From IMG/VR virus record IMGVR_UViG_2690316227_000003: a stretch of DNA of 5,836 bases; one strand, written 5' to 3'. This document shows positions 1-5,407 of this stretch, in pieces. The translations under genes were made by a program, and so were the position numbers. Under the pieces are notes generated by a model, which made no database searches, was not told where the DNA came from, and worked only from the letters and a program-made list of their open reading frames with translations. The stretch comes from a virus. Lineage: Duplodnaviria; Heunggongvirae; Uroviricota; Caudoviricetes. Numbering within the stretch: the stretch's first letter is position 1; each line of letters begins with the position of its first letter.

Positions 1-978
1 ACCCAGACATCCCGTATCGGCTCCATTGGCGTGATGATGAGCCATGTCAGCTATGCCGGTCATCTGGCGCAGGCCGGTGTTGATATCACGCTGATTTACT
101 CAGGGGCGCACAAGGTGGATGGCAATCAGTTTGAAGCGTTGCCGGCAGAGGTTCGCCAGGACATGCAACAGCGCATTGATGCGGCGCGCCGGATGTTTGC
201 TGAAAAAGTAGCGATGTATACCGGTCTGTCTGTTGATGCTGTCACGGGAACAGAGGCCGCCGTTTTTGAAGGTCAGTCCGGCATTGAGGCCGGGCTGGCG
301 GATGAATTAATCAATGCGTCGGATGCCATCAGTGTGATGGCCACGGCGCTGAACAGTAATGTCAGAGGAGGCACTATGCCGCAATTAACAGCAACGGAAG
401 CCGCCGCGCAGGAGAACCAGCGAGTGATGGGGATCCTGACATGCCAGGAAGCGAAAGGACGTGAACAGCTTGCCACGATGCTGGCAGGACAACAGGGCAT
501 GAGCGTTGAACAGGCCCGGGCGATTCTGGCCGCGGCGGCACCACAGCAGCCGGTGGCATCCGCGCAGAGTGAAGCCGATCGCATTATGGCGTGTGAAGAA
601 GCGAAAGGTCGTGAACAACTGGCGGCAACGCTGGCGGCGATGCCGGAGATGACGGTGGAAAAAGCCCGCCCGATCCTGGCTGCTTCACCGCAGGCGGATG
701 CCGGACCCTCACTCCGTGATCAGATCATGGCACTGGATGAGGCAAAAGGGGCTGAGGCGCAGGCTGAACAGCTGGCTGCCTGCCCGGGAATGACTGTGGA
801 GAGCGCCCGGGCTGTGCTGGCTGCGGGATCAGGTAAGGCAGAACCGGTCTCTGCATCCACAACCGCCCTGTTTGAACGCATCATGGCGAACCATTCACCG
901 GCAGCGGTACAGGGTGGCGTGCCACAGACGTCAGCAGACGGTGATGCGGACGTGAAAATGCTCATGGCCATGCCATGA
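1..978 (+). CDS. C: Head maturation protease / scaffold protein, lambda gpC-like (S49 peptidase family), 5'-partial; only the C-terminal part is in the window
   Basis: Frame 1 is open from position 1 (TQTSRIGSIGVMMSHV...) to the stop at 976-978, so the gene starts upstream of the window. Assigned mainly by position directly upstream of unambiguous D and E homologs, as in lambda; the Ala/Glu-rich repeat-containing C-terminal half is consistent with a scaffold domain. I cannot recall the lambda C sequence well enough for a residue-level comparison. Confidence 0.8.
   Translation, partial: TQTSRIGSIGVMMSHVSYAGHLAQAGVDITLIYSGAHKVDGNQFEALPAEVRQDMQQRIDAARRMFAEKVAMYTGLSVDAVTGTEAAVFEGQSGIEAGLADELINASDAISVMATALNSNVRGGTMPQLTATEAAAQENQRVMGILTCQEAKGREQLATMLAGQQGMSVEQARAILAAAAPQQPVASAQSEADRIMACEEAKGREQLAATLAAMPEMTVEKARPILAASPQADAGPSLRDQIMALDEAKGAEAQAEQLAACPGMTVESARAVLAAGSGKAEPVSASTTALFERIMANHSPAAVQGGVPQTSADGDADVKMLMAMP
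376..978 (+). CDS. nu3: Nested in-frame scaffolding protein, lambda Nu3-like, sharing the C-terminal 200 aa of the protease ORF
   Basis: Internal ATG at 376-378 is in the same frame as the protease ORF and is preceded by a strong Shine-Dalgarno GAGGAGG at 365-371. In lambda, Nu3 is translated from an internal start within C in the same frame; the 603-nt length is close to my recollection of lambda Nu3 (about 200 aa). Inference from sequence plus the lambda paradigm. Confidence 0.5.
   Translation: MPQLTATEAAAQENQRVMGILTCQEAKGREQLATMLAGQQGMSVEQARAILAAAAPQQPVASAQSEADRIMACEEAKGREQLAATLAAMPEMTVEKARPILAASPQADAGPSLRDQIMALDEAKGAEAQAEQLAACPGMTVESARAVLAAGSGKAEPVSASTTALFERIMANHSPAAVQGGVPQTSADGDADVKMLMAMP
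412..834 (+). repeat. Three tandem in-frame repeats of about 40-46 codons inside the scaffold (Nu3-like) region
   Basis: Protein-level repeats ENQRVMGILTCQEAKGREQLATMLAGQQGMSVEQARAILAAAAPQQ / EADRIMACEEAKGREQLAATLAAMPEMTVEKARPILAASPQ / LRDQIMALDEAKGAEAQAEQLAACPGMTVESARAVLAAGSG at about 412-549, 571-693 and 712-834, with a partial fourth copy (TALFERIMANH). DNA-level similarity is visible, e.g. gaagcgaaaggacgtgaacagcttgcc at 448-474 versus gaagcgaaaggtcgtgaacaactggcg at 598-624. Confidence 0.6.
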
Positions 979-1014
979 AGCCAGTGCTGACCATCAACAG
1001 GAGGTTTTTACAAT

Positions 1015-1362
1015 ATGGTGACGAAAACTATCACTGAACAGCGTGCGGAAGTACGTATTTTTGCCGGTAATGATCCGGCTCATACCGCCACAGGCAGCAG
1101 CGGGATTTCCTCGGCAACACCGGCACTGACGCCCCTGATGCTGGATGAGGCCACCGGGAAACTGGTGGTCTGGGACGGACAAAAAGCCGGTAGTGCGGTT
1201 GGCATACTGGTACTGCCGCTTGAAGGCACAGAGACGGCGCTGACCTATTACAAGTCGGGGACCTTTGCGACGGAGGCAATCCGCTGGCCTGAAAGTGTGG
1301 ATGAACACAAAAAGGCCAACGCCTTTGCCGGCAGTGCCCTGAGTCACGCGGCGCTGCCGTAA
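1015..1362 (+). CDS. D: Head decoration protein, lambda gpD-like
   Basis: 115-aa ORF with motifs matching recalled lambda gpD (DPAHTAT, TPLMLD, KLVxWDG, AVGIL, YKSGTF, WPE, AFAG). AGGAGG Shine-Dalgarno at 1000-1005 precedes the ATG at 1015. Position between protease/scaffold and major capsid gene matches lambda. Confidence 0.93.
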   Translation: MVTKTITEQRAEVRIFAGNDPAHTATGSSGISSATPALTPLMLDEATGKLVVWDGQKAGSAVGILVLPLEGTETALTYYKSGTFATEAIRWPESVDEHKKANAFAGSALSHAALP

Positions 1363-1370
1363 CACGTTAT

Positions 1371-1390
1371 CAGGCCACCGCGGTGGCCTG
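1371..1390. other. 20-bp perfect GC-rich palindrome (CAGGCCACCG|CGGTGGCCTG) in the D-E intergenic spacer; potential RNA hairpin
   Basis: Read directly from the sequence; lies 9 nt after the D stop and 30 nt before the E start. It is followed by ACTGATTTCTG, a poor U-tract, so it is not a classic intrinsic terminator. Confidence 0.3.
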
Positions 1391-1419
1391 ACTGATTTCT
1401 GAATGAAAGGAACTGATTT

Positions 1420-2448
1420 ATGGGATTGTTTACGACCCGCCAGTTACTCGGTTATACCGAACAAAAAGTGAAATTTCGTGCGCTGTTTCTGGAGCTGTTT
1501 TTCCGCCGTACGGTGAATTTCCATACCGAAGAGGTGATGCTGGACAAAATTACCGGAAAAACGCCGGTGGCGGCCTATGTTTCCCCGGTTGTTGAAGGAA
1601 AAGTGCTGCGTCATCGTGGTGGTGAAACCCGCGTGTTACGTCCGGGCTACGTCAAGCCGAAACACGAATTTAATTACCAGCAGGCGGTTGAGCGTCTTCC
1701 CGGTGAAGATCCGGCTCAGCTGAACGACCCGGCCTACCGTCGTCTGCGTATCATCACTGATAACCTCAAACAGGAAGAGCACGCCATTGTCCAGGTGGAA
1801 GAAATGCAGGCGGTGAATGCCGTGCTGTATGGCAAATACACGATGGAAGGAGACCAGTTCGAGAAAATTGAGGTCGATTTTGGCAGGTCGACGAAGAATA
1901 ACATCACTCAGGGTAGTGGTAAGGAGTGGTCAAAACAGGATCGTGACACGTTCGATCCTACACATGATCTTGACCTCTACTGCGACCAGGCCAGCGGTCT
2001 TGTGAATATTGCCATTATGGACGGTACCGTCTGGCGTCTGCTGAATGGCTTTAAATTGTTCCGCGAAAAACTGGATACCCGTCGCGGTTCAAATTCTCAA
2101 CTCGAAACAGCGGTGAAAGACCTGGGCGCGGTGGTGTCCTTCAAAGGGTATTACGGCGATCTGGCCATTGTGGTGGCAAAAACGTCTTATGTGGCAGAGG
2201 ACGGTACCGAAAAACGTTATCTGCCTGAGGGCTCGCTGGTCCTGGGGAATACGGCAGCAGAGGGCATTCGTTGCTATGGTGCCATTCAGGATGCGCAGGC
2301 GTTGTCCGAAGGTGTGGTGGCCTCTTCCCGTTATCCGAAACACTGGCTGACGGTGGGGGATCCCGCCCGTGAATTTACCATGACGCAGTCCGCGCCGCTG
2401 ATGGTGTTGCCGGACCCGGATGAGTTTGTGGTGGTACAGGTGAAATAA
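1420..2448 (+). CDS. E: Major capsid protein, lambda gpE-like
   Basis: 342-aa ORF (lambda gpE is 341 aa) with long near-identical stretches to recalled gpE: PGYVKPKHE, DPAYRR, AIVQVEEMQAVNAVLYGKYTM, EKLDTRRGSNSQLETAVKDLG, GDPAREFTMTQSAPLMVLPDPDEFVVVQ. Shine-Dalgarno AAGGA lies upstream of the ATG at 1420. Confidence 0.97.
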   Translation: MGLFTTRQLLGYTEQKVKFRALFLELFFRRTVNFHTEEVMLDKITGKTPVAAYVSPVVEGKVLRHRGGETRVLRPGYVKPKHEFNYQQAVERLPGEDPAQLNDPAYRRLRIITDNLKQEEHAIVQVEEMQAVNAVLYGKYTMEGDQFEKIEVDFGRSTKNNITQGSGKEWSKQDRDTFDPTHDLDLYCDQASGLVNIAIMDGTVWRLLNGFKLFREKLDTRRGSNSQLETAVKDLGAVVSFKGYYGDLAIVVAKTSYVAEDGTEKRYLPEGSLVLGNTAAEGIRCYGAIQDAQALSEGVVASSRYPKHWLTVGDPAREFTMTQSAPLMVLPDPDEFVVVQVK

Positions 2449-2456
2449 TCCGTGAG

Positions 2457-2485
2457 CGGGGGCGAAATGCCCCCGTGTCTTTTTT
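2457..2485 (+). terminator. Candidate intrinsic (rho-independent) terminator or RNA-stabilising hairpin immediately downstream of the major capsid gene
   Basis: Stem CGGGGGC (2457-2463), loop GAAAT (2464-2468), stem GCCCCCG (2469-2475), then TGTC and a run of six T (2480-2485). Located 9 nt after the E stop. The 4-nt spacer between stem and T-tract is slightly non-canonical. Confidence 0.45.
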
Positions 2486-2499
2486 CACAGGGGGATGAT

Positions 2500-2874
2500 A
2501 TGGCAACGAAAGAGCAAAATCTGAAACGGCTTGATGAACTGGCCCTGATTCTGGGGCGTGAGCCGGATATATCCGGGAGTGCCGCAGAGATAGCGCAGCG
2601 GGTGGCAGAATGGGAAGAGGAAATGCAGTCATCCGGCGATGATGTACAGGTTATGAATATGGATATCCGGGAGAGGGAAAACGCGGCTCATGATGTTCGT
2701 GAGGAAACATCCGGCGCGTTAACGCGCATCAGAGTTCTGACCTGCCTCCATCTCTGTGGCGTTGATGGTGAAACGGGGGAATCCGTTGAGCTTGCGGATG
2801 TTGGTCGGGTGATTCTGATTATGTCCTCAGATGCAAAAACACACGTTGATGGTGGAATGGCTGTTTATGCGTGA
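2500..2874 (+). CDS. FI: FI-like head assembly / DNA-packaging accessory protein (divergent from lambda gpFI)
   Basis: Occupies the FI position between E and FII. 124-aa product with a helical N-terminus, acidic middle and hydrophobic C-terminal segment, broadly like lambda FI (132 aa) but with low identity by eye. Start chosen at ATG 2500 (MATKEQ), preceded by AGGGGGA at 2489-2495; the longer ORF-track start at 2452 falls inside the terminator hairpin and lacks a ribosome-binding site. Confidence 0.65.
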   Translation: MATKEQNLKRLDELALILGREPDISGSAAEIAQRVAEWEEEMQSSGDDVQVMNMDIRERENAAHDVREETSGALTRIRVLTCLHLCGVDGETGESVELADVGRVILIMSSDAKTHVDGGMAVYA

Positions 2875-3220
2875 TTTTCAGAATGCCTTTGATGCCGCCC
2901 TTGCCGGGGTGGACAGTACGATTGTTGAAGTGATGGGCATCAGTGCGCAGTTCACCTCCGGTGCACAGCGTGGCGGCGAAGTTCAGGGGGTTTTTGACGA
3001 TCCGGAGTCGCTGGGGTTTGCCAGTAGTGGGATCCGTATTGAAGGAAGCAGCCCGTCATTATTTGTGCGGACGGATACGGTTCGTGCCGTGCGGCGTGGT
3101 GACACGTTGACCATTAATGGTGAGACGTTCTGGGTGGATCGTGTTTCTCCGGATGACGGGGGCAGTTGTTATCTCTGGCTGAACCGTGGGCAACCACCCG
3201 CAGTTAACCGGCGACGATAA
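2867..3220 (+). CDS. FII: Head-tail joining (head completion) protein, lambda gpFII-like
   Basis: Strong similarity to recalled lambda gpFII: FDAAxA, GVFDDPE, EGSSPSLFVRTD, RRGDTLTI, FWVDRVSPDDGGSC, LWLxRGxPPAVNRRR (C-terminus essentially identical). Start chosen at ATG 2867 (MRDFQNAFDAA, aligning with lambda MADFDNLFDAA); this overlaps the FI stop as ATGCGTGA. Confidence 0.92.
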   Translation: MRDFQNAFDAALAGVDSTIVEVMGISAQFTSGAQRGGEVQGVFDDPESLGFASSGIRIEGSSPSLFVRTDTVRAVRRGDTLTINGETFWVDRVSPDDGGSCYLWLNRGQPPAVNRRR

Positions 3221-4975: not shown

Positions 4976-5407
4976 ATGTTTCTGAAAACCGAACAATTTG
5001 AATATAACGGTGTGTCCGTCACGCTTTCCGAGCTGTCTGCGCTGCAGCGTATCGAGCATCTTGCCCTGCTGAAACGACGGGCAGAACAGGCTGAAGCCAG
5101 CGGTAACCTGCAGGTGAGCGTGGAAGACCTTGTCAGAACCGGCGCGTTTCTGGTGGCGATGTCCCTGTGGCATAACCATCCACAGAAAACGGAGTCACCA
5201 TCAATGAATGAGGCTGTGATGCAGATCGAACAGGAGGTGCTCACCACCTGGCCTGCTGATGCCATTGCCCGGGCGGAAGACGTGGTGTTGCGTCTGTCCG
5301 GGATGAGCGGGGCTGTTCATGTGGATACGGATATCACCGAAGTGGCGAAAAATAACGCGCTGACTGATGATGATTTTTCTGCGGGAAAGTCTTCGACGGC
5401 GAGCTGA
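4976..5407 (+). CDS. G: Tail assembly chaperone, lambda gpG-like
   Basis: 143 aa; MFLKTEQFEYNGVSVTLSELSALQRIEHLAL and RTGAFLVAMSLWHNHPQKT...PSMNEAV.QIEQEVLTTWP closely match recalled lambda gpG. GGAGG Shine-Dalgarno precedes the ATG at 4976. The slippery heptamer lies near the 3' end. Confidence 0.94.
   Translation: MFLKTEQFEYNGVSVTLSELSALQRIEHLALLKRRAEQAEASGNLQVSVEDLVRTGAFLVAMSLWHNHPQKTESPSMNEAVMQIEQEVLTTWPADAIARAEDVVLRLSGMSGAVHVDTDITEVAKNNALTDDDFSAGKSSTAS
5383..5389 (+). other. -1 programmed ribosomal frameshift slippery heptamer G GGA AAG (G to G-T fusion)
   Basis: In the G frame the codons are GCG GGA AAG (5381-5389), giving the X XXY YYZ heptamer GGGAAAG at 5383-5389, the same heptamer as recalled for lambda G-T. 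The -1 frame is open from 5374 through 5811 and encodes a T-like sequence. Confidence 0.85.

What the first reader, a model, noticed from the sequence alone, without database searches (positions are those of the whole stretch)
2449..2499. Terminator-like hairpin directly after the major capsid gene
A 7-bp all-G/C stem (CGGGGGC / GCCCCCG) with a 5-nt loop and a six-T run lies between E and the FI-like gene. Partial terminators after capsid genes are a known way for phages to raise capsid-protein transcript levels relative to downstream low-copy genes; in a prophage it could also insulate against read-through. Under Q-antiterminated late transcription it would be largely read through, so it may instead act as a 3' stabiliser of processed mRNA.
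Basis: partly seen in the sequence, partly recalled or inferred. Interest (0 to 1): 0.45.

Follow-up and report, generated by a model that had tools for sequence, protein, structure and literature searches.

The report
Leaky terminator hairpin after capsid gene
A real, strongly conserved terminator-like RNA hairpin sits right after the major capsid gene of this phage-21-like prophage, just as in phage lambda; it is an ordinary, already recognised kind of element whose exact job inside an antiterminated late operon is still untested.

Summary
After the capsid-gene stop (2446-2448) come stem CGGGGGC (2457-2463), loop GAAAT, stem GCCCCCG (2469-2475), spacer TGTC, T6 (2480-2485), an SD, then the FI start at 2500. 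It is the only + strand site in the window with a positive terminator score; 0.5% of shuffles reach that score.

The window is a phage-21-like late operon (C/Nu3, shp/D, E, FI, FII, Z, U, V, G, T). A hairpin at this exact position occurs in almost every lambda-E-type capsid operon examined. There are about ten unrelated hairpin sequences, one compensatory G-C to A-U change, G.U intermediates, and covarying outer pairs in the lambda group. T content is 57-80% at +1 to +6 after the stems and falls to background by +9, which is the intrinsic-terminator signature. A second terminator-like hairpin precedes E, after shp/D.

All tail genes depend on the same Q-antiterminated promoter, so the site must be mostly read through. 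The best reading is a leaky terminator that defines or protects the 3' end of capsid mRNA. This is inferred, not shown. Similar intra-operon terminators have been reported in P22-like phage L with "roles not known". Verdict: new member of a known kind; modest interest.

The parts
1420..2448 (+). Major capsid protein gene (lambda E / phage 21 gene 7 homologue), stop TAA at 2446-2448
   Evidence: ORF. PF03864 Phage_cap_E, E = 2.7e-66. Annotated as the major capsid gene in phage 21 records.
2456..2476 (+). GC-rich stem-loop. 5' arm (G)CGGGGGC 2456/2457-2463, loop GAAAT 2464-2468, 3' arm GCCCCCG(T) 2469-2475/2476.
   Evidence: Sequence. Energy -16.8 kcal/mol. Pair probabilities 0.87-0.99 in context. 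Compensatory and G.U variants in relatives.
2477..2485 (+). Tail: spacer GTC (2477-2479) plus T6 tract (2480-2485). This would be the RNA:DNA hybrid (GUCUUUUUU) if termination occurred 7-9 nt after the stem.
   Evidence: T-score 2.8-3.3. T enrichment at +1 to +6 after the stem across 30 lineages.
2490..2502 (+). Shine-Dalgarno GGGGGA (2490-2495) and ATG (2500-2502) of the FI-like gene
   Evidence: RBS and start annotated at the equivalent positions in phage 21 records.
2500..2874 (+). FI-like DNA packaging protein gene (phage 21 ORF1)
   Evidence: PF14000 Packaging_FI, E = 1.6e-16. Annotations.
1370..1391 (+). Companion stem-loop TCAGGCCAC-CGCG-GTGGCCTGA in the shp(D)/capsid-gene gap, followed by CTGATTTCTG. 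Together with 2456-2476 it brackets the capsid gene.
   Evidence: -16.8 kcal/mol, d = -3.7. The same gap in lambda-type relatives holds a canonical GCCGC-N4-GCGGC-T7 terminator.

Best explanation
The element is an intrinsic-terminator-type stem-loop of modest strength. It punctuates the single late operon immediately after the major capsid gene.

Mechanism, with each step marked:
1. In the RNA the 7-8 bp all-G/C stem forms very stably (computed). It is followed by GUC and U6, so an unmodified RNA polymerase would be expected to release some transcripts at about 2483-2485 (inferred from anatomy and score).
2. During lytic growth the polymerase carries the lambdoid Q antiterminator, which blocks hairpin formation in the RNA-exit channel. 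Most polymerases therefore continue into FI, FII and the tail genes. They must do so, because no other promoter serves those genes (inferred from the literature and the promoter scan).
3. The hairpin still forms behind the polymerase, and in the minority of terminated transcripts. There it marks a structured 3' end that resists 3'-to-5' exonucleases, after release or after cleavage in the U-rich single strand just downstream. This keeps the C-shp-E segment more abundant or longer-lived than the mRNA for the low-copy downstream genes (inferred, not shown).

The same element would also stop any polymerase that entered the head genes without Q.
For: Structure and score. With the same scoring, the 42.9-kb phage 21 genome gives only 7 + strand hits. 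Five of them are terminators annotated by the depositors, one is inside a coding region, and one is this hairpin.

Selection on the hairpin:
- About ten unrelated hairpin sequences sit at the same junction in E-family operons: 21-type, lambda-type C(UUCG)G, Providencia GAAA, Serratia UACG, Trabulsiella, Buttiauxella, Aeromonadaceae, E. whittamii, Methylorubrum, and phages PhAER-2, Chi, Salvo and K243.
- These hairpins rank in the top 1-10% of 60-nt windows of their loci in 20 of 22 lineages.
- A compensatory G-C to A-U change occurs in L085, with G.U intermediates in L033 and L060.
- The outer pairs covary in the lambda group: UA 9, CG 3, UG 1 at one pair; AU 6, GU 6, GC 2 at the next. Only 6 of 500 shuffles reach the observed count of double changes.

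Selection on the U-tract: T fraction is 0.57-0.80 at +1 to +6 after the stem and falls to the 0.21 background by +9. A run of four or more T lies within 10 nt in 12 of 30 lineages. In L085 the tail sequence has changed but a T5 run now abuts the stem.

Orientation: no T run follows the hairpin on the minus strand.

Read-through requirement: there is no promoter-like site downstream. The Q21 and Q-lambda nozzle prevents terminator hairpins (10.1101/651190; PMC9388147).

Placement: hairpins follow the two highest-copy head genes, shp/D and E, in both phage 21 and lambda.

Precedent: a putative terminator at the end of the procapsid module inside the late operon of P22-like phage L, where partial termination or stopping spurious transcription were offered as possible roles (PMC8022706). 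Inefficient terminators are reported to balance expression in T7 (PMC9163698).
Against: - No transcript 3'-end, coverage or half-life data were available, so steps 1 and 3 are inference.
- The T6 run is offset from the stem by 3-4 nt (GUC/UGUC). This puts G:C pairs in the upstream part of the hybrid and should lower termination efficiency.
- The carefully annotated phage 21 record lists ten terminator features (nine sites) but not this site.
- phi80 has only a 9-nt E-FI gap and no hairpin, so the element is dispensable in at least one relative.
- Several lineages have a hairpin without a U-tract: L088, L090, L157 and Salvo.
- The major tail gene V, also high-copy, has no such hairpin; its gap to G is 13 nt.
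- From memory only: Sampson et al. 1988 concluded that translation initiation, not mRNA level, sets lambda late-protein ratios. Only the title was verified. If correct, any transcript-level effect is modest.
- The window does not include the Q gene, so the antiterminator type of this prophage is unknown.
Confidence: 0.5

Rival explanations
1. Safety terminator only. The hairpin stops polymerases that enter or start within the head genes without Q, for example in the lysogen or from spurious promoters. It has no meaningful effect on late-gene ratios during lytic growth.
For: The terminator signature (GC stem plus adjacent U-tract) is what is conserved across lineages, and it matters only to polymerases that can still terminate. 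Q-loaded polymerase is termination-deficient. This role is explicitly proposed for the phage L intra-operon terminator (PMC8022706). The element is carried by prophages in 1,539 of 5,426 complete E. coli genomes, where silence matters.
Against: It does not explain why the elements sit precisely after the two highest-copy head genes rather than anywhere else. The toxic lysis genes lie upstream of the head genes in the late transcript, so a backstop here comes too late to protect the host. Some lineages keep the hairpin but not the U-tract.
Confidence: 0.2
2. Translation-related element. The stable local hairpin and U-rich tract organise the FI ribosome-binding site. They could keep it single-stranded, provide an S1-binding U-tract, or couple or uncouple FI initiation from ribosomes terminating on the capsid gene.
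For: The hairpin lies 0-12 nt after the stop codon in most lineages, within reach of a terminating ribosome, and 15-25 nt before the FI start. Natural flanks pair with each other no more, and often less, than shuffled flanks, so the FI SD is kept open.
Against: The specific coupling model, in which the SD is sequestered by pairing across the base of the hairpin, was tested and not supported: observed flank-flank pairing was at or below the shuffle mean in most of 19 lineages. T enrichment hugs the stem rather than the SD. The equivalent hairpin after shp/D is a canonical terminator. phi80 translates FI with a 9-nt gap and no hairpin.
Confidence: 0.1
3. No selected function. The hairpin is a chance inverted repeat, or a DNA-level relic of a mosaic recombination junction between capsid and packaging modules.
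For: Different FI alleles are joined to the identical hairpin in close relatives, so a recombination boundary lies nearby. phi80 lacks the element.
Against: There is independent hairpin turnover at the same position in about ten lineages, with compensatory changes and covariation. The T-tract is strand-specific. The shuffle probability is 0.005.
Confidence: 0.04

Closest known systems
Phage lambda E-FI intergenic hairpin (ATGGCCC-UUCG-GGGCCAU followed by UGUUUCUCU; lambda 7163-7180)
   Same: Same gene junction (PF03864 capsid gene to FI), same orientation, 2-7 nt after the stop codon, U-rich tail, SD and FI start about 20 nt downstream, and a similar score (d = 19 against 18)..
   Different: The sequence is unrelated (GGCCC/GGGCC core with an extra-stable C(UUCG)G tetraloop, against G5/C5 with a 5-nt loop). 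Lambda's U-rich tail abuts the stem but is interrupted, whereas here a clean T6 is offset by 3-4 nt. It is not annotated in J02459 either.
Putative intra-late-operon terminator at the end of the procapsid gene module of P22-like phage L (PMC8022706)
   Same: A predicted rho-independent terminator inside a single-promoter late operon, at the end of the procapsid gene module, whose Q-like antiterminator is 80% identical to phage 21 Q. The authors state that the roles of such terminators are not known and suggest partial termination or stopping spurious transcription.
   Different: The capsid protein family and gene order differ (P22-type), and there is no sequence relationship. I did not examine the phage L sequence itself.
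Leaky terminators after major capsid genes in other phages (e.g. T7 T-phi after gene 10; weak terminators mapped by ONT-cappable-seq)
   Same: A hairpin terminator after the most abundantly needed structural gene, with substantial read-through used to balance expression (PMC9163698). The T7 T-phi position is from my own knowledge.
   Different: Those systems use phage polymerases or host polymerase without Q-type processive antitermination. Here read-through is enforced by an antiterminator rather than by terminator weakness alone.
Intercistronic mRNA-stabilising hairpins (malE-malF REP, Rhodobacter puf operon, T4 C(UUCG)G intercistronic hairpins). From my own knowledge, not checked here.
   Same: A stable stem-loop at the 3' end of the more highly expressed upstream cistron of a polycistronic mRNA, proposed to block 3' exonucleases.
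   Different: REP elements are dispersed repeats, whereas this element is found only at the capsid/FI junction. Those stabilisers need no U-tract, whereas a U-tract is enriched here. The stabilising effect has not been measured for this element.

Membership tests
Intrinsic (Rho-independent) terminator | G/C-rich stem-loop of about 5-14 bp with a short loop in the transcript | tested here: met
   7-8 bp stem, 7 G-C pairs, 5-nt loop, -14.8 to -16.8 kcal/mol, pair probability 0.96 or higher.
Intrinsic (Rho-independent) terminator | U-tract immediately 3' of the stem (within 0-2 nt), giving a weak rU:dA hybrid | tested here: inconclusive
   T6 is present but offset by 3-4 nt (GTC/TGTC). T-score is 2.8-3.3, against 4.1-5.2 for most annotated phage 21 terminators. 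The combined d-score is still positive at +10.7 to +18.2. Family-wide T enrichment at +1 to +6 supports the feature at this junction in general. The score formula was recalled from memory (d'Aubenton Carafa 1990) and applied with current energy parameters.
Intrinsic (Rho-independent) terminator | Co-oriented with transcription, downstream of a stop codon, with the U-tract on the sense strand only | tested here: met
   Lies 8 nt after the capsid-gene TAA on the late-operon strand. The minus-strand version has no T run.
Intrinsic (Rho-independent) terminator | Called by an established predictor (TransTermHP or ARNold) | not tested
   These programs are not available here. Indirect evidence: the curated phage 21 record OL657228 annotates ten terminator features (nine sites) but none at 7382-7432.
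Intrinsic (Rho-independent) terminator | RNA 3' ends in the U-tract in vivo, or release of transcripts in vitro | not testable with these tools
   No Term-seq or RNA-seq data were reachable. No paper on lambda or phage 21 late-operon 3' ends was found.
Intercistronic 3' mRNA-stabiliser hairpin | Stable stem-loop at the 3' end of the more highly expressed upstream cistron, conserved as structure rather than sequence | tested here: met
   About ten unrelated hairpins at the same junction, compensatory changes, and extra-stable UUCG, UACG and GAAA loops in relatives.
Intercistronic 3' mRNA-stabiliser hairpin | Upstream mRNA segment is longer-lived or more abundant than the downstream segment, dependent on the hairpin | not testable with these tools
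   Requires rifampicin-chase RNA measurements in wild type and stem mutants.
REP/BIME-type dispersed palindromic repeat | Many copies dispersed in intergenic regions of the host genome | tested here: not met
   The 91-nt junction hits 2,278 places in 1,539 E. coli genomes. In every listed row it lies under major capsid protein / gpFI annotation, with a median of 1 copy per genome. There is a single copy in the window.
Any curated Rfam RNA family | Covariance-model match | tested here: not met
   No relevant match in the window at E <= 1.

The most novel reading that the evidence does not exclude
The capsid gene is deliberately bracketed by two terminator-like hairpins: one after shp/D at 1370-1391 and this one at 2456-2476. 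Lambda-type relatives have the same arrangement, with GCCGC-N4-GCGGC-U7 upstream and C(UUCG)G downstream. Under this reading, processing of the roughly 20-kb antiterminated late transcript would excise a discrete capsid mRNA capped by a structure at each end and unusually long-lived. The terminator form would be kept because it doubles as the processing and protection signal. That would assign a function to the intra-operon terminators of antiterminated phage operons, whose roles are described as not known.
Probability: 0.15. Interest if true: 0.5.

Novelty: new member of a known kind. Interest (0 to 1): 0.3.

Why it matters
Lambdoid late operons are the textbook case of one promoter plus processive antitermination. 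Yet they carry conserved terminator-shaped hairpins right after the genes needed in the highest copy number, and the literature says the roles of such elements are unknown (PMC8022706). This junction is present in about 28% of complete E. coli genomes, and lambda has an equivalent, so the question can be tested directly in standard strains. If the hairpins set capsid mRNA level or lifetime, that would add a transcript-level layer to late-gene stoichiometry, which is usually attributed to translation initiation. It would also matter for engineering phage and prophage expression. If they are only backstops against un-antiterminated transcription, the finding is routine.

Tried and rejected
1. 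SD sequestration or translational coupling. The MFE of the 51-nt region pairs UCC/GUGA just after the stop with UCAC/GGG at the FI SD, and similar outer helices appeared in some relatives. I tested 19 lineages against flank shuffles. Flank-flank pairing was at or below the shuffle mean in most, so I rejected this idea.

2. Known RNA family. The Rfam scan was negative.

3. Dispersed repeat or REP element. Rejected, because the sequence is found only at the capsid/FI junction.

4. Strong terminator with a new promoter downstream. There is no promoter-like site after the hairpin, and all tail genes follow in the same operon.

5. Literature. Eight searches and several look-ups found no paper describing lambda or phage 21 E-FI hairpins, and none with 3'-end or coverage data for the late operon. 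Liu et al. 2013 (PMC3718152) and Casjens & Hendrix 2015 (PMC4424060) are not held.

6. Close relatives. The 80 IMG/VR loci are too similar (98% or more) to be informative beyond a few G.U variants and homopolymer-length variants.

7. First hairpin finder. It merged the U-tract into outer helices and gave misleading T-scores, so I replaced it with a perfect-stem core-hairpin scan.

8. Limit of the perfect-stem scan. It misses imperfect stems, including the experimentally known tR' of phage 21 and the weakened post-shp hairpin of L085. Its sensitivity is therefore incomplete.

Full report
**What the window is.**
The 5.8-kb window is the head-to-tail part of a phage-21-like (Jouyvirus) late operon. 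It is 97% identical to the phage 21 head operon M81255 over 1-3035, and 89-93% identical to phage 21 and related E. coli phages over most of its length. The gene order on the + strand is as follows:
- C/Nu3 protease-scaffold, 31-978
- shp, the lambda D homologue (PF02924), 1015-1362
- major capsid gene, lambda E / phage 21 gene 7 (PF03864), 1420-2448
- an FI-like packaging gene (PF14000), 2500-2874
- FII (PF05354), from 2867
- then Z, U, V, G and T

The finding's coordinates, 2449-2499, are exactly the capsid/FI intergenic gap.

**Check of the observation.**
The sequence reads TAA(2446-2448) TCCGTGAG CGGGGGC GAAAT GCCCCCG TGTC TTTTTT CACA GGGGGA TGAT ATG(2500). A G2456.U2476 pair can add an eighth pair.
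- The core hairpin is -16.8 kcal/mol. Its pairs have probability 0.96-0.99 when folded within 260 nt of context.
- The 51-nt gap folds at -22 kcal/mol, z = -2.2.
- The built-in terminator scan ranks it first in the window, although that loose pattern is not specific overall (9 hits against 5.9 expected).
- I applied a stricter score that combines hairpin energy per nucleotide with a weighted T-tail. The form is that of d'Aubenton Carafa; I recalled the coefficients from memory. By this score it is the only + strand site in the window with d > 0 (d = +18.2). In 200 dinucleotide shuffles, the mean number of sites reaching that score was 0.005.
- For calibration I ran the same scan over the whole 42.9-kb phage 21 genome. 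It returns seven sites. Five coincide with terminators annotated by the depositors, one lies in coding sequence, and the seventh is this hairpin.
- The scan misses imperfect stems such as the known tR', so it is specific but not sensitive.

**Comparative evidence.**
Close relatives tell us little. In 80 IMG/VR loci with capsid proteins 98% or more identical, and in four E. coli chromosomes, the hairpin is almost invariant. The few changes are C to U substitutions that give G.U pairs (L033, L060) or homopolymer-length variants. One somewhat more distant lineage (L085, Shigella/E. coli, capsid 95% identical) has GCGGGAGC-TAAAT-GCTCCCGT. This is a compensatory G-C to A-U change at one pair. Its tail has been rewritten so that a T5 run now abuts the stem.

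More distant relatives are decisive. I collected them through a capsid-protein alignment against one genome per species and against annotated phages. Almost every operon with an E-family capsid gene has a strong hairpin starting 0-22 nt after the capsid stop codon, but the sequences are unrelated:
- lambda and many Enterobacteriaceae prophages: GGCCC-UUCG-GGGCC with variable outer pairs
- Providencia: CGGCGGG-GAAA-CCCGCCG
- Serratia: AGGGGC-UACG-GCCCCU
- distinct hairpins in Trabulsiella guamensis, Buttiauxella, an Aeromonadaceae MAG, E. whittamii and Methylorubrum
- distinct hairpins in the phages PhAER-2, Chi, Salvo and K243

In 20 of 22 lineages this hairpin is in the top 1-10% of all 60-nt windows of its locus. 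Within the lambda group the five core pairs never vary, but the two outer pairs covary: UA/CG/UG at one and AU/GU/GC at the next. There are seven cells with changes on both sides, a count reached by 6 of 500 shuffles, and pairing collapses when partners are slid. Exceptions exist. phi80 has only 9 nt between E and FI, and two very distant copies (L156, L158) have no clear hairpin.

**Terminator or plain hairpin?**
Across 30 lineages the fraction of T is 0.57-0.80 at positions +1 to +6 after the stem and falls to the genomic background (0.21) by +9. Twelve lineages have a run of four or more T within 10 nt, and twenty have a run of three or more. The enrichment hugs the stem rather than the downstream Shine-Dalgarno. 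It is strand-specific, because no T run follows the minus-strand version. At the family level the element therefore carries the intrinsic-terminator signature, not just a hairpin.

The window's copy deviates slightly. Its T6 is displaced by GUC, which would place G:C pairs in the upstream part of the hybrid and should reduce efficiency. Its T-score (2.8-3.3) is below that of most annotated phage 21 terminators (4.1-5.2), though two of them score lower overall. The curated phage 21 genome record annotates ten terminator features at nine sites, including two inside the late operon (I/J and after J), but not this one. That hints that a standard predictor did not call it.

**A twin upstream.**
The shp/capsid gap in the window holds another strong hairpin (1370-1391, -16.8 kcal/mol) with a weak T tail. 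In lambda, phi80 and about twenty other lambda-type lineages the same gap holds a canonical terminator, GCCGC-N4-GCGGC followed by T7, with d = 24-46. So the capsid gene is bracketed by terminator-shaped hairpins, and both of the highest-copy head genes (D/shp and E) are followed by one. The major tail gene V is not; its gap to G is 13 nt.

**How it most likely works.**
The late genes of lambdoid phages are transcribed from one promoter by polymerase carrying Q. For phage 21 Q and lambda Q, structures show a nozzle on the RNA-exit channel that prevents terminator hairpins from forming (10.1101/651190; PMC9388147). There is no promoter-like site after the hairpin, and the tail genes lie downstream. 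The site must therefore be mostly read through in lytic growth.

What remains is a leaky terminator. A minority of polymerases, and all polymerases lacking Q, would stop at about 2483-2485. In every transcript the hairpin forms once the RNA has left the polymerase. A stable hairpin a few nucleotides after the stop codon, followed by a U-rich single strand, is the classic arrangement for a protected 3' end. I therefore favour a role in keeping capsid-gene mRNA more abundant or longer-lived than the mRNA for FI, FII and the low-copy tail-completion genes. Stopping stray transcription would be a side benefit. My confidence is 0.5.

None of the RNA-level steps is shown. No 3'-end, coverage or half-life data could be reached. 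Against a large effect:
- phi80 does without the element.
- Gene V lacks one.
- By my recollection, classical work (Sampson et al. 1988; only the title was verified) attributes lambda late-protein ratios mainly to translation initiation.

**Rivals.**
- A pure safety terminator for un-antiterminated transcription is the main rival (0.2). It explains the conserved U-tract, but not the placement after D and E. A backstop here also comes after the lysis genes.
- A translational role for the FI start is possible (0.1). The specific idea that the FI Shine-Dalgarno is sequestered across the base of the hairpin was tested in 19 lineages and failed: natural flanks pair no more, and often less, than shuffled flanks.
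- Chance, or a recombination relic, is disfavoured by the hairpin turnover, the covariation and the strand-specific T-tract (0.04).

**Comparison with what is known.**
- The closest relative by position is lambda's own E-FI hairpin, which is unannotated in J02459.
- The same kind of element is reported for P22-like phage L: a predicted terminator at the end of the procapsid module inside the antiterminated late operon. [quoted passage not shown]
- Leaky terminators that balance phage expression are described for T7 and for Pseudomonas phages (PMC9163698).
- Intercistronic stabiliser hairpins (malE-malF REP, puf, T4 CUUCGG hairpins) are functional analogues that I cite from my own knowledge.
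- It is not a dispersed repeat and matches no Rfam family.

**Verdict.**
Its interpretation is reasonable but only partly supported, because the choice among attenuation, stabilisation and insulation needs transcript data. It is a new, unannotated member of a known kind of element. Interest is modest (0.3). A specialist would not be surprised. However, the consistent bracketing of the capsid gene by two terminator-like hairpins across lambda-like phages, and the presence of this junction in 28% of complete E. coli genomes, make the open question of what intra-operon terminators do in antiterminated operons easy to test.

Noticed in passing
window 1370-1391 (and the D/E gap of L159 602-615, L160, and about 20 genome loci): A second strong hairpin, TCAGGCCAC-CGCG-GTGGCCTGA, lies between shp/D and the capsid gene. 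In lambda-type relatives the same gap holds a canonical terminator GCCGC-N4-GCGGC-T7-ACGGG (d = 24-46) with a variable loop. The capsid gene is thus bracketed by terminator-like hairpins. In L085 this hairpin is weakened by one C.A mismatch and one G.U pair.
   Followed up: partly
window 5383-5389: A GGGAAAG slippery heptamer lies about 20 nt before the stop of the G homologue (4976-5407), with the T reading frame following. This is the lambda-type G/GT -1 programmed frameshift site. Phage 21 annotates a joined G-T product.
   Followed up: partly
window ~440-850 (C/Nu3 ORF 31-978): The scaffold (Nu3-like) part of the C ORF contains three approximately 38-residue repeats (…EAKGREQLA…ARAILAA…). 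They correspond to the 'Tri boxes' annotated with unknown function in M81255. Tandem Repeats Finder sees nothing at the DNA level.
   Followed up: no
window 272-299 and 1148-1171, + strand: Two in-coding hairpins are as strong as or stronger than the intergenic ones: -20.6 kcal/mol in C/Nu3 and -16.9 kcal/mol in shp with a GAAA loop. Neither has a T tail.
   Followed up: no
window 2452-2499: The FI reading frame stays open upstream through the hairpin to a GTG at 2452, so mechanical ORF calling gives a 140-aa product. The annotated start in relatives is the ATG at 2500, preceded by GGGGGA.
   Followed up: yes
L018, L030, L083, L167-L170 versus window 2500-2540: Distinct FI alleles (for example ATGGCAACAAAAGAAGAAAATCAG… against ATGGCAACGAAAGAGCAAAATCTG…) are joined to the same capsid gene and hairpin. 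This implies a mosaic recombination boundary at or just after the hairpin or FI start.
   Followed up: no
Genome-contig loci L091-L106, L127-L147: Many hits at 61% capsid identity in unrelated taxa (Chromatium, Streptomyces/Kitasatospora, Paenibacillus, Bradyrhizobium and others, on short low-coverage contigs) share a single downstream sequence carrying the lambda-type hairpin. They are most likely lambda DNA contamination of those assemblies.
   Followed up: no
L166 (phage 21 genome) 15649-15673 and 19195-19222: The phage 21 late operon carries two further annotated intrinsic terminators, between I and J and after J. Both scored d = 26 and 49 in my scan. Terminator-like punctuation of the antiterminated operon is therefore not limited to the head genes.
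   Followed up: partly
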